Of a stretch of DNA of 64,000 bases, positions 59,589 to 64,000 are shown piece by piece. This stretch comes from Escherichia coli (GTDB lineage: Bacteria > Pseudomonadota > Gammaproteobacteria > Enterobacterales > Enterobacteriaceae): NCBI RefSeq assembly GCF_016026235.1, contig NZ_CP065613.1; one strand, written 5' to 3'. Position 1 is the first letter of the stretch. The number at the start of each line of letters is the position of its first letter. Position numbers and translations under genes: made by a program. The notes beneath the pieces are model-generated. The model did not search any database, had not been told where the DNA came from, and saw only the letters and a program-made list of their open reading frames with translations.

Positions 59589-60791
59589 GTGACGGCGTTA
59601 AAAGTAGGAAGTGAGAGCTGGTGGCAGTCGAAACATGGCCCGGAATGGCAGCGTCTGAATGACGAAATGTTTGAGGTCACTTTCTGGTGGCGTGATCCCC
59701 AAGGTTCTGAAGAATACTCGACGATAAAGCGCGTATGGATCTACATCACTGGTGTGACCGATCATCATCAGAACAGCCAGCCCCAGTCGATGCAGCGAAT
59801 TGCAGGTACTGATGTCTGGCAGTGGACGACACAACTCAATGCCAACTGGCGCGGCAGCTACTGCTTTATTCCCACCGAACGCGATGACATTTTTTCTGCA
59901 CCATCCCCCGATCGCCTCGAATTACGTGAAGGCTGGCGAAAACTATTACCCCAGGCAATAGCCGATCCGCTGAATCCACAAAGCTGGAAAGGCGGGCGAG
60001 GGCACGCTGTTTCTGCACTCGAAATGCCGCAAGCGCCTCTGCAACCGGGATGGGATTGTCCGCAAGCGCCAGAAATACCAGCCAAAGAAATTATCTGGAA
60101 AAGTGAACGGTTGAAAAATTCACGTCGTGTATGGATTTTTACCACCGGCGATGTAACAGCAGAAGAACGCCCGCTGGCAGTTTTGCTCGATGGCGAATTT
60201 TGGGCGCAAAGTATGCCCGTCTGGCCTGTGCTGACTTCGCTGACCCATCGTCAGCAACTTCCTCCCGCCGTGTATGTGTTGATCGACGCTATCGACACCA
60301 CGCACCGCGCCCACGAACTGCCGTGTAATGCGGATTTCTGGCTGGCAGTACAGCAAGAGTTATTACCCCTGGTGAAAGCTATTGCCCCTTTTAGCGATCG
60401 CGCCGATCGCACCGTGGTCGCCGGGCAGAGTTTTGGTGGGCTGTCCGCGCTGTATGCCGGACTGCACTGGCCTGAACGCTTTGGCTGTGTATTAAGCCAG
60501 TCAGGATCGTACTGGTGGCCGCATCGGGGCGGGCAGCAAGAGGGCGTGTTACTTGAAAAGCTAAAAGCTGGTGAAGTTAGCGCCGAAGGTCTACGCATTG
60601 TGCTGGAAGCGGGTATTCGCGAGCCGATGATCATGCGGGCCAATCAGGCGCTGTATGCGCAATTACACCCTATAAAAGAATCCATTTTCTGGCGTCAGGT
60701 TGACGGCGGACATGATGCGCTTTGTTGGCGCGGTGGCTTGATGCAGGGGTTAATCGACCTCTGGCAACCACTTTTCCATGACAGGAGTTGA
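59589..60791 (+). CDS. fes: Enterobactin/ferric enterobactin esterase
   Basis: 400-aa ORF from a GTG start; esterase fold with GQSFGG serine motif; the true start may be internal. Confidence 0.88.
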   Translation: MTALKVGSESWWQSKHGPEWQRLNDEMFEVTFWWRDPQGSEEYSTIKRVWIYITGVTDHHQNSQPQSMQRIAGTDVWQWTTQLNANWRGSYCFIPTERDDIFSAPSPDRLELREGWRKLLPQAIADPLNPQSWKGGRGHAVSALEMPQAPLQPGWDCPQAPEIPAKEIIWKSERLKNSRRVWIFTTGDVTAEERPLAVLLDGEFWAQSMPVWPVLTSLTHRQQLPPAVYVLIDAIDTTHRAHELPCNADFWLAVQQELLPLVKAIAPFSDRADRTVVAGQSFGGLSALYAGLHWPERFGCVLSQSGSYWWPHRGGQQEGVLLEKLKAGEVSAEGLRIVLEAGIREPMIMRANQALYAQLHPIKESIFWRQVDGGHDALCWRGGLMQGLIDLWQPLFHDRS

Positions 60792-60793
60792 AT

Positions 60794-61012
60794 ATGGCAT
60801 TCAGTAATCCCTTCGATGATCCACAGGGAGCGTTTTACATTTTGCGCAATGCGCAGGGGCAATTCAGTCTGTGGCCGCAACAATGCGCCTTACCGGCAGG
60901 CTGGGACATTGTGTGTCAGCCGCAGTCACAAGAGTCCTGCCAGCAGTGGCTTGAAGCCCACTGGCGTACTCTGACACCGGCGAATTTCACCCAGTTGCAG
61001 GAGGCACAATGA
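60794..61012 (+). CDS. ybdZ: MbtH-like protein (NRPS adenylation partner)
   Basis: 72 aa from MAFSNPFDDPQGAFYILRNAQGQFSLWP; overlaps the fes stop and the entF start. Confidence 0.9.
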   Translation: MAFSNPFDDPQGAFYILRNAQGQFSLWPQQCALPAGWDIVCQPQSQESCQQWLEAHWRTLTPANFTQLQEAQ

Positions 61013-64000
61013 GCCAGCATTTACCTTTGGTCGCCGCACAGCCCGGCATCTGGATGGCAGAAAAACTGTCGGATTTACCCTCCGCCTGGAGCGTGGCGCA
61101 TTACGTTGAGTTAACCGGAGAGGTTGATGCGCCATTACTGGCCCGCGCGGTGGTTGCCGGATTAGCGCAAGCAGATACGCTGCGGATGCGTTTTACGGAA
61201 GATAACGGCGAAGTCTGGCAGTGGGTCGATGATGCGCTGACGTTCGAACTGCCAGAAATTATCGACCTGCGAACCAATATTGATCCGCACGGTACTGCGC
61301 AGGCATTAATGCAGGCGGATTTGCAACAAGATTTGCGCGTCGATAGCGGTAAACCACTGGTCTTTCACCAGCTGATACAGGTGGCAGATAACCGCTGGTA
61401 CTGGTATCAGCGTTATCACCATTTACTGGTCGATGGCTTCAGTTTTCCGGCCATTACCCGCCAGATCGCCAACATTTACTGCGCATTGCTGCGTGGCGAA
61501 CCAACGCCTGCTTCGCCGTTTACGCCTTTCGCTGATGTAGTGGAAGAGTACCAGCAATACCGCGAAAGCGAAGCCTGGCAGCGTGATGCGGCATTCTGGG
61601 TGGAACAGCGTCGCCAACTGCCACCGCCCGCGTCACTTTCTCCGGCACCTTTACCGGGGCGTAGCGCCTCGGCAGATATTCTGCGCCTGAAACTGGAATT
61701 TACCGACGGGGAATTCCGCCAGTTGGCTGCGCAACTTTCAGGTGTGCAGCGTACCGATTTAGCCCTTGCGCTGGCAGCCTTGTGGCTGGGGCGATTGTGC
61801 AATCGCATGGACTACGCCGCCGGATTTATCTTTATGCGTCGACTGGGCTCGGCGGCGCTGACGGCTACCGGACCCGTGCTCAACGTTTTACCGTTGGGTA
61901 TTCACATTGCGGCGCAAGAAACGCTGCCGGAACTGGCAACCCGACTGGCAGCACAACTGAAAAAAATGCGTCGCCATCAACGTTACGATGCCGAACAAAT
62001 TGTCCGTGACAGTGGGCGAGCGGCAGGTGATGAACCGCTGTTTGGTCCGGTACTCAATATCAAGGTATTTGATTACCAACTGGATATTCCTGATGTTCAG
62101 GCGCAAACCCATACCCTGGCAACTGGGCCGGTTAATGACCTTGAACTGGCCCTGTTCCCGGATGAACACGGTGATTTGAGTATTGAGATCCTCGCCAATA
62201 AACAGCGTTACGCTGAGCCAACGTTAATCCAGCATGCTGAACGCCTGAAAATGCTGATCGCCCAATTCGCCGCGGATCCGGCGCTGTTGTGCGGCGATGT
62301 CGATATTATGCTGCCAGGTGAGTATGCGCAGCTGGCGCAGATCAACGCCACTCAGGTTGAGATTCCAGAAACCACGCTTAGCGCGCTGGTGGCAGAACAA
62401 GCGGAAAAAACACCGGATGCTCCGGCGCTGGCAGATGCGCGTTACCAGTTCAGCTATCGGGAAATGCGTGAGCAGGTGGTGGCGCTGGCGAATCTGCTGC
62501 GTGAGCGCGGCGTTAAACCAGGGGACAGCGTGGCGGTGGCACTACCGCGCTCGGTCTTTTTGACCCTGGCACTCCATGCGATAGTTGAAGCTGGCGCGGC
62601 CTGGCTACCGCTGGATACCGGCTATCCGGACGATCGCCTGAAAATGATGCTGGAAGATGCGCGTCCGTCGCTGTTAATCACCACCGACGATCAACTGCCG
62701 CGCTTTGTTGATGTTCCAGATTTAACCAGCCTTTGCTATAACGCCCCGCTTACACCGCAGGGCAGTGCGCCGCTGCAACTTTCACAACCGCATCACACGG
62801 CTTATATCATCTTTACCTCTGGCTCCACCGGCAGGCCGAAAGGGGTAATGGTCGGGCAGACGGCTATCGTCAACCGCCTGTTGTGGATGCAAAATCATTA
62901 TCCGCTCACAGGCGAAGATGTCGTTGCCCAAAAAACGCCGTGCAGTTTTGATGTCTCGGTGTGGGAGTTTTTCTGGCCGTTTATTGCCGGGGCTAAACTA
63001 GTGATGGCTGAACCGGAAGCGCACCGCGACCCGCTTGCTATGCAGCAATTCTTTGCCGAATATGGCGTAACGACCACGCACTTTGTGCCGTCGATGCTGG
63101 CGGCATTTGTTGCATTGCTGACTCCGCAAACCGCTCGCCAGAATTGCGCGACGTTGAAACAGGTTTTCTGTAGTGGTGAGGCCTTACCGGCTGATTTATG
63201 CCGCGAATGGCAACAGTTAACGGGCGCGCCGTTGCATAATCTATATGGCCCGACGGAAGCGGCGGTAGATGTGAGCTGGTATCCGGCTTTTGGCGAGGAA
63301 CTGGCACAGGTGCGCGGCAGCAGTGTGCCGATTGGTTATCCGGTGTGGAATACGGGCTTGCGCATTCTCGATGCGATGATGCATCCGGTGCCGCCGGGTG
63401 TGGCGGGAGATCTCTATCTCACCGGTATTCAACTGGCGCAGGGGTATCTTGGACGACCCGATCTGACCGCCAGCCGCTTTATTGCCGATCCTTTTGTCCC
63501 TGGTGAACGGATGTACCGTACCGGAGACGTTGCCCGCTGGCTGGATAACGGCGCGGTGGAGTACCTCGGGCGCAGTGACGATCAGCTAAAAATTCGCGGG
63601 CAGCGTATTGAACTGGGCGAAATCGATCGCGTGATGCAGGCGCTGCCGGATGTCGAACAAGCCGTTACCCACGCCTGTGTGATTAACCAGGCGGCAGCCA
63701 CCGGTGGTGATGCGCGTCAGTTGGTGGGCTATCTGGTGTCGCAATCAGGTCTGCCGTTGGATACCAGCGTATTACAGGCACAGCTTCGCGAAACATTGCC
63801 GCCGCATATGGTGCCGGTCGTTCTGCTGCAACTTCCACAGTTACCTCTTAGCGCCAACGGCAAGCTGGATCGCAAAGCCTTACCGTTGCCTGAACTTAAG
63901 GCACAAACGCCGGGGCGTGCGCCGAAAGCGGGCAGTGAAACGATTATCGCTGCGGCATTCGCGTCGTTGCTGGGTTGTGACGTGCAGGATGCCGATGCTG
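61009..64000 (+). CDS. entF: Enterobactin NRPS serine-activating module (5' 2.99 kb only; truncated by the window end)
   Basis: Open frame from ATG 61009 to the window end; condensation motif HHLLVDGFS and adenylation motifs (FTSGSTGRPKG, YRTGD); absent from the ORF track because no stop lies in the window. Confidence 0.9.
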   Translation, partial: MSQHLPLVAAQPGIWMAEKLSDLPSAWSVAHYVELTGEVDAPLLARAVVAGLAQADTLRMRFTEDNGEVWQWVDDALTFELPEIIDLRTNIDPHGTAQALMQADLQQDLRVDSGKPLVFHQLIQVADNRWYWYQRYHHLLVDGFSFPAITRQIANIYCALLRGEPTPASPFTPFADVVEEYQQYRESEAWQRDAAFWVEQRRQLPPPASLSPAPLPGRSASADILRLKLEFTDGEFRQLAAQLSGVQRTDLALALAALWLGRLCNRMDYAAGFIFMRRLGSAALTATGPVLNVLPLGIHIAAQETLPELATRLAAQLKKMRRHQRYDAEQIVRDSGRAAGDEPLFGPVLNIKVFDYQLDIPDVQAQTHTLATGPVNDLELALFPDEHGDLSIEILANKQRYAEPTLIQHAERLKMLIAQFAADPALLCGDVDIMLPGEYAQLAQINATQVEIPETTLSALVAEQAEKTPDAPALADARYQFSYREMREQVVALANLLRERGVKPGDSVAVALPRSVFLTLALHAIVEAGAAWLPLDTGYPDDRLKMMLEDARPSLLITTDDQLPRFVDVPDLTSLCYNAPLTPQGSAPLQLSQPHHTAYIIFTSGSTGRPKGVMVGQTAIVNRLLWMQNHYPLTGEDVVAQKTPCSFDVSVWEFFWPFIAGAKLVMAEPEAHRDPLAMQQFFAEYGVTTTHFVPSMLAAFVALLTPQTARQNCATLKQVFCSGEALPADLCREWQQLTGAPLHNLYGPTEAAVDVSWYPAFGEELAQVRGSSVPIGYPVWNTGLRILDAMMHPVPPGVAGDLYLTGIQLAQGYLGRPDLTASRFIADPFVPGERMYRTGDVARWLDNGAVEYLGRSDDQLKIRGQRIELGEIDRVMQALPDVEQAVTHACVINQAAATGGDARQLVGYLVSQSGLPLDTSVLQAQLRETLPPHMVPVVLLQLPQLPLSANGKLDRKALPLPELKAQTPGRAPKAGSETIIAAAFASLLGCDVQDADA

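What the first reader, a model, noticed from the sequence alone, without database searches (positions are those of the whole stretch)
60788..64000. Overlapping fes-ybdZ-entF junctions; entF is cut by the window edge
The ybdZ ORF overlaps the fes stop (60788-60791), and the entF ATG overlaps the ybdZ stop (61009-61012), indicating translational coupling of esterase, MbtH-like protein and NRPS. Only the condensation domain and most of the adenylation domain of EntF are within the window, so the thiolation and thioesterase domains cannot be assessed here.
Basis: seen in the sequence. Interest (0 to 1): 0.2.

Follow-up and report, generated by a model that had tools for sequence, protein, structure and literature searches.

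The report
Ordinary E. coli fes-ybdZ-entF junctions
This is the well-known enterobactin fes-ybdZ-entF operon of E. coli: the small helper gene ybdZ overlaps the start of the big synthetase gene entF by four bases, a very common arrangement, while the claimed overlap with fes is an ORF-calling artefact, so the finding is ordinary.

Summary
The region is the E. coli enterobactin operon fes-ybdZ-entF. It is 99.96% identical over 7.8 kb to strain FDAARGOS_943 and present in 5,414 of 5,426 complete E. coli genomes.

- **ybdZ/entF overlap: confirmed.** The entF ATG (61009-61011) overlaps the ybdZ TGA (61010-61012) as ATGA. A 4-nt overlap is kept in at least 32 of 45 other Enterobacterales species. 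This is the commonest junction type in E. coli and fits termination-reinitiation coupling, which I infer but did not test.
- **fes/ybdZ overlap: not real.** It exists only if ybdZ starts at TTG 60788, which sits directly against the Shine-Dalgarno AGGAG. The annotated start is ATG 60794, 2 nt after the fes stop, and it is conserved across species. At the TTG position, six species have a stop codon and 13 have TTT.
The window holds 997 codons of entF. These cover the whole condensation domain, the whole adenylation domain (motif A10 at residue 948) and the first 18 residues of the carrier domain. The window stops 9 residues before Ser1006.
- **entF beyond the edge.** In the nearest genome entF continues intact to 1,293 aa with carrier and thioesterase domains.

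Nothing here is novel.

The parts
59506..59542 (.). AT-rich array of weak Fur-box-like hexamer repeats in the fepA-fes divergent control region
   Evidence: Best matches to the 19-mer Fur consensus have 6-7 mismatches, phased every 6 nt at 59506/59512/59518/59524. No match at 3 mismatches or fewer. That this is the Fur operator rests on recalled literature, not on a test here.
59589..60791 (+). fes (enterochelin esterase), 400 aa, GTG start, TGA stop at 60789-60791
   Evidence: ORF and translation. Pfam Enterochelin_N plus Esterase. NCBIfam equivalog NF007758 at 709 bits against a cut-off of 222. Annotated identically in NZ_CP065615.1.
60780..60787 (+). GACAGGAG, the Shine-Dalgarno sequence for ybdZ. 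It lies inside the last fes codons, 6 nt upstream of ATG 60794.
   Evidence: Read from the sequence. The same octamer occupies this position in 42 of 45 other Enterobacterales loci.
60788..60790 (+). It overlaps the fes TGA as TTGA and is very probably not used.
   Evidence: It has zero spacing from AGGAG. The position is TTG in only 21 of 45 species, TTT in 13, a stop codon in 6 and another non-start codon in 5.
60794..61012 (+). ybdZ, an MbtH-like protein of 72 aa, ATG start, TGA stop at 61010-61012
   Evidence: Pfam PF03621 MbtH at 76.5 bits. RefSeq CDS WP_000885782.1 has these coordinates. Matches PDB 5JA1 chain B (YbdZ) at E = 9e-47, and that chain starts at this Met.
61000..61004 (+). 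GGAGG, the Shine-Dalgarno sequence for entF. It lies inside the ybdZ coding sequence, 4 nt upstream of the entF ATG.
   Evidence: Read from the sequence. GGAGG or a similar motif is kept in the loci that carry the ATGA junction.
61009..61012 (+). ATGA: 4-nt overlap of the entF start codon and the ybdZ stop codon
   Evidence: The same -4 junction (ATGA, or GTGA in one case) is found in 32 of 45 other Enterobacterales species, and possibly as GTGA in 4 more.
61009..64000 (+). entF, the 5' 2,992 nt (codons 1-997 of 1,293), cut by the window edge
   Evidence: Open frame to the end of the window. NCBIfam EntF equivalog NF007605, model positions 1-996 of 1292, at 2150 bits. Full length is 1,293 aa in the nearest genome.
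61012..62334 (+). EntF condensation domain (residues 2-442; HHxxxDG motif at residue 137)
   Evidence: Pfam PF00668 at 366 bits. Motif position.
62392..63864 (+). EntF adenylation domain, complete. Core at residues 462-814, C-terminal subdomain at 884-952. Motifs A3 at 602, A7 at 836, A8 at 854, A10 at 948.
   Evidence: Pfam PF00501 at 299 bits and PF13193. Motif positions.
63946..63999 (+). First 18 residues (980-997) of the EntF carrier (PCP) domain. The phosphopantetheine serine, Ser1006, lies 9 codons beyond the window.
   Evidence: PP-binding covers 980-1040 in the full-length protein of the nearest genome. The Ser of GGHS is at residue 1006.

Best explanation
This is the 5' part of the Escherichia coli enterobactin operon fes-ybdZ-entF(-fepE), read from the iron-regulated divergent fepA-fes promoter region. 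fes ends at TGA 60789-60791. ybdZ starts 2 nt later at ATG 60794, served by an AGGAG that lies in the last fes codons. ybdZ ends at TGA 61010-61012, which overlaps the entF ATG (61009-61011) as ATGA, and a GGAGG lies 4 nt upstream inside ybdZ.

The likely mechanism is that ribosomes finishing fes, and especially ybdZ, reinitiate at once on the next start codon (termination-reinitiation). De novo initiation at the two good Shine-Dalgarno sites adds to this. The effect would be that the MbtH-like helper YbdZ and its partner synthetase EntF are made from the same mRNA in linked amounts.

Shown here: gene identities, coordinates, junction anatomy, conservation across species, and the continuation of entF in the nearest genome. 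Inferred: co-transcription, the coupling itself and any benefit for stoichiometry.
For: - **Identity with known genomes.** The region is 99.96% identical to NZ_CP065615.1 over window 56201-64000, with 3 mismatches, one of them synonymous in entF. It is present in 5,414 of 5,426 complete E. coli genomes, annotated fes, ybdZ and entF.
- **Family assignments.** Fes and EntF match equivalog models, and YbdZ matches MbtH. Solved EntF-YbdZ complexes exist as 5JA1 and 5JA2.
- **ATG 60794 as the ybdZ start.** This is the RefSeq coordinate. The spacing from AGGAG to ATG is 6 nt. ATG and GACAGGAG are conserved, while the TTG position is TTT, a stop or another codon in 24 of 45 species.
- **The -4 overlap.** It is conserved in at least 32 of 45 Enterobacterales species although the flanking sequence diverges.
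- **One transcript is plausible.** No terminator-like site and no + strand promoter-like site lies between fes and entF. The literature lists the operon as fes-ybdZ-entF-fepE under Fur control (PMC8910356).
- **Coupling in general.** ATGA pairs in E. coli were strictly coupled in reporter tests, coupling decays within about 20 nt, and short overlaps are enriched among subunits of heteromeric complexes (PMC6728339 and PMC10666635).
- **The partners interact.** YbdZ enhances EntF solubility and catalysis and is required for enterobactin production (PMC7593251).
Against: - Coupling was not measured for this gene pair.
- Both downstream genes have strong Shine-Dalgarno sequences of their own, and neither junction has predicted RNA structure that would mask them (z = 0.85 and -0.03). 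Independent initiation could therefore account for much of the expression.
- Six of 45 species separate ybdZ and entF by 9-12 nt, and in about 25 species the fes stop is 23-31 nt from ybdZ. Tight junctions are therefore not essential to the pathway.
- The part of entF beyond base 64000 is known only from a near-identical genome, not from this one.
Confidence: 0.85

Rival explanations
1. One reading: ybdZ initiates at TTG 60788, giving a 74-aa protein whose start overlaps the fes stop as TTGA, so all three genes are joined by overlapping stop/start codons.
For: The mechanical ORF runs 60788-61012 with a TTG start. TTG is an allowed bacterial start codon. TTG is present at this position in Escherichia, Citrobacter and Salmonella, 21 of 45 loci.
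Against: - TTG sits directly against AGGAG with no spacer, whereas the ATG has a 6-nt spacer.
- In the 16 non-Escherichia species that keep TTG, fes ends 28-31 nt upstream, so no overlap exists there.
- The codon is a stop in 6 species and TTT in 13.
- RefSeq annotates the ATG. Functional YbdZ, which was crystallised with EntF, starts at the Met.
Confidence: 0.04
2. The tight junctions have no functional role. The 4-nt overlap and the 2-nt gap are neutral by-products of genome compaction, and ybdZ and entF are each translated mainly by independent ribosome loading at their own Shine-Dalgarno sites.
For: Both junctions carry strong Shine-Dalgarno motifs and lack masking structure. Related species tolerate 9-12 nt spacers between ybdZ and entF, and 10-31 nt between fes and ybdZ. 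ATGA overlaps are the default junction in E. coli operons.
Against: At least 32 of 45 species keep a 4-nt ATGA or GTGA overlap despite divergence of the flanks. In published tests, 13 of 14 overlapping pairs were strictly coupled (PMC6728339). The two products form a physical complex.
Confidence: 0.25
3. Programmed recoding: a -1 frameshift at the end of fes or of ybdZ produces a Fes-YbdZ or YbdZ-EntF fusion protein, resembling the natural MbtH-adenylation fusions.
For: In both cases the downstream frame is -1 relative to the upstream one. MbtH domains fused to NRPS adenylation domains exist, for example 4GR4/4GR5 and ObiF1 6N8E.
Against: Neither junction has a slippery heptamer or a stimulatory structure. 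YbdZ and EntF are purified and crystallised as separate chains.
Confidence: 0.01

Closest known systems
E. coli K-12 enterobactin operon fes-ybdZ-entF-fepE (Fur-regulated, divergent from fepA-entD)
   Same: Same genes, order and junctions. The sequence is 95-100% identical across 5,414 complete E. coli genomes. YbdZ differs from the crystallised YbdZ (5JA1 chain B) at 3 of 72 residues.
   Different: Nothing of substance. The window simply ends at entF codon 997.
Stop/start-overlapping (ATGA, -4) gene pairs coupled by termination-reinitiation (Huber et al. 2019 and 2023; PMC6728339, PMC10666635)
   Same: Co-directional genes, an ATGA overlap, a Shine-Dalgarno sequence inside the upstream gene, and products that form a heteromeric complex.
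   Different: Coupling has not been measured for ybdZ-entF. The downstream partner is 18 times longer than the upstream one, and YbdZ binds a domain that emerges only after about 450 codons.
MbtH-like protein / NRPS adenylation-domain partnerships (YbdZ-EntF 5JA1, PA2412-EntF 5JA2, SlgN1 fusion 4GR4)
   Same: A 72-aa MbtH-family protein is encoded immediately upstream of the NRPS whose adenylation domain it binds.
   Different: Here the helper is a separate polypeptide, although its gene overlaps the NRPS gene. In SlgN1 and ObiF1 the MbtH domain is fused to the enzyme.

Membership tests
Enterobactin fes-ybdZ-entF operon of Enterobacteriaceae | An enterochelin esterase (Fes) gene comes first | tested here: met
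   NCBIfam equivalog NF007758 at 709 bits (cut-off 222), and Pfam Enterochelin_N plus Esterase.
Enterobactin fes-ybdZ-entF operon of Enterobacteriaceae | A small MbtH-like gene lies between fes and entF | tested here: met
   Pfam PF03621 at 76.5 bits (cut-off 27). Matches PDB YbdZ 5JA1_B at E = 9e-47.
Enterobactin fes-ybdZ-entF operon of Enterobacteriaceae | EntF serine-activating NRPS lies downstream | tested here: met
   NF007605 EntF equivalog aligned over model positions 1-996 of 1292 at 2150 bits. This is below the full-length cut-off of 2400 only because the window truncates the gene. The full 1,293-aa protein of the nearest genome matches 5JA1_A end to end.
Enterobactin fes-ybdZ-entF operon of Enterobacteriaceae | Synteny with fepA-entD upstream (divergent) and fepE and fepCGD downstream | tested here: met
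   ORFs matching fepA and entD lie on the minus strand at 57106-59406 and 56311-57081. The downstream genes are seen in the nearest genome only.
Enterobactin fes-ybdZ-entF operon of Enterobacteriaceae | Fur-controlled promoter upstream of fes | tested here: inconclusive
   Only weak, phased Fur-box-like repeats (6-7 mismatches to the 19-mer) at 59506-59542. The simple scan found no + strand sigma-70 match. Regulation is known from the literature.
Translationally coupled overlapping gene pair (termination-reinitiation) | Co-directional genes with a -4 or -1 overlap, or a spacing of no more than a few nt | tested here: met
   ybdZ/entF overlap by 4 nt as ATGA. fes/ybdZ are separated by 2 nt.
Translationally coupled overlapping gene pair (termination-reinitiation) | Both genes lie on one transcript | not testable with these tools
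   The data are consistent with one transcript: no terminator-like or promoter-like site lies between the genes, and the operon is listed in the literature. No RNA data were available here.
Translationally coupled overlapping gene pair (termination-reinitiation) | Translation of the downstream gene depends on translation of the upstream gene | not testable with these tools
   This needs a reporter assay with premature stops in ybdZ or fes.
NRPS termination module C-A-PCP-TE (EntF type) | Condensation domain with HHxxxDG | tested here: met
   PF00668 covers residues 2-442, and HHLLVDG is at residue 137.
NRPS termination module C-A-PCP-TE (EntF type) | Complete adenylation domain (motifs A3 to A10) | tested here: met
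   PF00501 covers 462-814 and PF13193 covers 884-952. A3 is at 602, A7 at 836, A8 at 854 and A10 at 948.
NRPS termination module C-A-PCP-TE (EntF type) | Carrier domain with phosphopantetheine serine, and a thioesterase domain | tested here: inconclusive
   Both lie outside the window, which ends at residue 997. In the 99.96%-identical genome, PP-binding covers 980-1040 (Ser1006) and Thioesterase covers 1067-1282.

The most novel reading that the evidence does not exclude
The ATGA junction might do more than equalise expression. A ribosome that has just released YbdZ would reinitiate on entF, so YbdZ would be delivered in cis to the EntF adenylation domain emerging from the same mRNA (co-translational chaperoning).

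A second, smaller point: Escherichia has shifted the 3' end of fes relative to Citrobacter and Salmonella, so that fes now terminates 2 nt instead of about 30 nt before ybdZ. This would be a lineage-specific tightening of coupling between the esterase and the synthetase.
Probability: 0.12. Interest if true: 0.3.

Novelty: already known. Interest (0 to 1): 0.06.

Why it matters
It matters little. The result confirms that this stretch is a standard, intact-looking copy of the enterobactin operon.

It corrects two details for anyone annotating the window: the ybdZ start, and how much of EntF lies inside the window. The only mildly useful general point is a warning. A 'first start codon after a stop' ORF call can create a spurious stop/start overlap, and spacing from the Shine-Dalgarno sequence together with cross-species comparison resolves it.

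Tried and rejected
- **TTG 60788 as the ybdZ start.** Rejected on Shine-Dalgarno spacing, annotation, the PDB construct and cross-species codon identity.
- **RNA structure masking the ybdZ or entF ribosome-binding sites,** the classic structure-dependent form of coupling. Folding of 60740-60850 and 60950-61070 is no better than shuffles (z = -0.03 and 0.85).
- **Internal promoter or terminator between fes and entF.** None found.
- **Strict Fur-box search.** No match at 3 mismatches or fewer. A relaxed scan gives only weak phased matches.
- **Recoding or frameshift fusion.** No slippery site and no structure.
- **Older papers.** I tried to read Pettis & McIntosh 1987 (recalled PubMed id) and Schomer et al. 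2018 (PMC6050124). Neither look-up found a held paper.
- **Variation within E. coli.** The junction region is 95-100% identical in all genomes, which is too little variation to be informative. I therefore used a degenerate DNA pattern scan of GTDB species genomes instead.
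Full report
**What is in the sequence**

Reading 59400-61300 and listing ORFs shows three consecutive + strand frames.

- The first runs 59589-60791 (GTG start, 400 aa, TGA at 60789-60791).
- The second is listed mechanically as 60788-61012 with a TTG start (74 aa).
- The third opens at ATG 61009 and stays open to the last base of the window, 997 codons plus one base.

The exact bases were re-read by script. TTG is at 60788-60790, the fes TGA at 60789-60791, ATG at 60794-60796, the entF ATG at 61009-61011 and the ybdZ TGA at 61010-61012. The fes/ybdZ 'overlap' depends entirely on accepting the TTG as the start codon.

**Identity of the genes**

- Pfam gives Enterochelin_N plus Esterase for the first protein and MbtH for the second.
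- For the third, Pfam gives Condensation (2-442), AMP-binding (462-814) and AMP-binding_C (884-952).
- NCBIfam equivalog models name the first enterochelin esterase (709 bits, cut-off 222).
- They name the third EntF: 2150 bits over model positions 1-996 of 1292, below the full-length cut-off only because of truncation.
- Megablast finds the 4.6-kb stretch in 5,414 of 5,426 complete E. coli genomes, everywhere annotated fes, ybdZ and entF.
- The best match is strain FDAARGOS_943 (NZ_CP065615.1). It differs at 3 positions over window 56201-64000, one of them a synonymous change in entF codon 372.

**Which start codon does ybdZ use?**

Four independent lines point to ATG 60794 and not TTG 60788.

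1. RefSeq annotates ybdZ as a 72-aa CDS starting at the ATG, which leaves 2 nt between the fes stop and the ybdZ start.
2. The AGGAG at 60783-60787 is 6 nt from the ATG but directly abuts the TTG.
3. The YbdZ chain crystallised with EntF (5JA1_B) begins at this Met after a tag remnant.
4. A degenerate DNA pattern for FSLWP-x5-PAGW was scanned over one genome per GTDB species and returned 81 loci. Forty-five of them are Enterobacterales ybdZ homologues with a Fes homologue upstream (44 verified by BLASTP at 60-99% identity) and an EntF-like ORF downstream.

In the 45 loci from line 4 the ATG is invariant and GACAGGAG is present in 42. The codon at the E. coli TTG position is TTG in 21, TTT in 13, a stop codon in 6 and another non-start codon in 5.

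The distance from the fes stop to the ybdZ ATG is 2 nt only in the five other Escherichia species and one Erwinia. It is 3 nt in 4 species, 10-15 nt in 9 and 23-31 nt in 25, including Citrobacter and Salmonella. The fes/ybdZ overlap is therefore an artefact of 'first start after a stop' ORF calling. The near-abutment of fes and ybdZ is a feature of the Escherichia lineage.

**The ybdZ/entF junction**

In the same 45 species the start nearest the conserved LPL(V/I/T)AAQ motif gives the following:

| Junction type | Species |
|---|---|
| 4-nt ATGA overlap (GTGA in one) | 32 |
| GTGA possible, but with downstream alternative ATGs | 4 |
| 8-nt overlap | 2 |
| 1-nt overlap | 1 |
| 9-12 nt spacer with its own GGAG | 6 |

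The overlap is kept even where the flanking bases have diverged, for example in Kluyvera against Escherichia. This fits selection for the junction, although coding constraint on both genes also contributes.

The arrangement is not unusual. In 50 kb of the nearest genome, 5 of 32 co-directional pairs have the same -4 overlap: fepD/G, fepG/C, ybdZ/entF, purE/K and ybcF/ylbF. Published counts make ATGA the commonest junction in E. coli, and 24% of unidirectional pairs lie within -8 to +6 nt (PMC10666635).

**Mechanism**

No terminator-like site and no + strand promoter-like site lies between the fes start and entF. The literature treats fes-ybdZ-entF-fepE as one Fur-repressed operon (PMC8910356).

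Neither junction folds better than shuffled controls (z = -0.03 and 0.85). There is thus no sign of the structure-unmasking type of coupling.

The most likely mechanism is termination-reinitiation, helped by the intragenic Shine-Dalgarno motifs (GACAGGAG for ybdZ, GGAGG for entF). This was shown experimentally for other E. coli ATGA pairs and decays within about 20 nt (PMC6728339 and PMC10666635).

The products do form a complex. YbdZ binds the EntF adenylation domain (5JA1), enhances EntF solubility and catalysis, and is required for enterobactin production (PMC7593251). Short overlaps are enriched among subunits of heteromeric complexes.

All of this makes coupling plausible, but it remains an inference. 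Both genes could also be initiated independently, and several relatives manage without the tight junctions.

**How much of EntF is in the window?**

The full protein in the nearest genome is 1,293 aa, with PP-binding at 980-1040 and Thioesterase at 1067-1282. The window holds residues 1-997:

- the complete condensation domain (HHxxxDG at 137);
- the complete adenylation domain (A3 at 602, A7 at 836, A8 at 854, A10 at 948);
- the first 18 residues of the carrier domain.

It stops 9 residues before Ser1006 of GGHS. Its statement that the thiolation and thioesterase domains cannot be assessed from the window is correct.

Its refutation test is a stop soon after the edge. That test is not met in the closest genome, where the frame continues for 296 codons.

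**Comparison and verdict**

This is the textbook enterobactin operon and an everyday type of gene junction. It is a member of a known system in every feature that could be tested. Nothing about it is new.

- ybdZ starts at ATG 60794, so fes and ybdZ are adjacent and do not overlap.
- The tight fes-ybdZ spacing is specific to Escherichia.
- The whole adenylation domain and the beginning of the carrier domain lie in the window.

Interest is low.

Noticed in passing
window 54016-56290: The hokE region appears twice. Copy A is at 54016-54405, followed by an IS4-like ISEc60 element (inverted repeats at 54404-54423 and 55680-55699) and a 90-nt segment at 55698-55787. A second copy follows: 55822-56212 at 95-96% identity, plus the 90-nt segment again at 56201-56290, just before entD. 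The nearest complete genome has only the IS-interrupted copy. The only one of 5,426 complete genomes that covers 80% or more of this stretch is that same genome, through three joined pieces rather than the same arrangement.
   Followed up: partly
window 59589-59666 (fes N-terminus): Fes homologues from more than 20 other genera align from residue 1-6 of the 400-aa GTG-start form. The 26 residues upstream of the internal Met27 are therefore conserved as protein. This supports the long form.
   Followed up: partly
L079 (Lactobacillus johnsonii ATCC 33200, 223-bp scaffold); L067 (Parendozoicomonas haliclonae, 540-bp contig): Two tiny contigs in unrelated assemblies carry enterobacterial ybdZ sequence, one E. 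coli-type and one Salmonella-type. This is most likely contamination of those assemblies.
   Followed up: no
L003, L015, L018, L037 and other Citrobacter/Salmonella loci compared with window 60760-60796: The 3' end of fes is evolutionarily labile. In Citrobacter and Salmonella, fes stops in the ybdZ frame about 30 nt before the ATG. In Escherichia, fes is in the +1 frame and runs through the conserved ttccaYgacaggagttga stretch to a TGA 2 nt before the ATG.
   Followed up: partly
L010, L035, L041, L047 (Enterobacter sp. R1, Cedecea colo, Buttiauxella MAG, Dryocola): In these species the EntF-like ORF has a possible N-terminal extension of about 15 residues. It starts at a GTG that overlaps the ybdZ stop (GTGA), and alternative ATGs lie 14 and 38-44 nt downstream. 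The true start is ambiguous.
   Followed up: no
L039 (Enterobacter sp. EA-1, CP025776.1): The ybdZ Shine-Dalgarno sequence is altered (CGACAGAG). The search found no long Fes-like ORF ending upstream and no long EntF-like ORF downstream. This may be a degraded locus or may reflect errors in that assembly.
   Followed up: no
H32 (NZ_AP027185.1) and H45 (NZ_CP182374.1) in E. coli genomes: One genome matches the 401-bp junction query with a 1-base length difference. Another matches only the first 88 bases, with entF annotated directly next to a truncated fes, which suggests a deletion that removes ybdZ. Twelve of the 5,426 genomes have no match at all.
   Followed up: no
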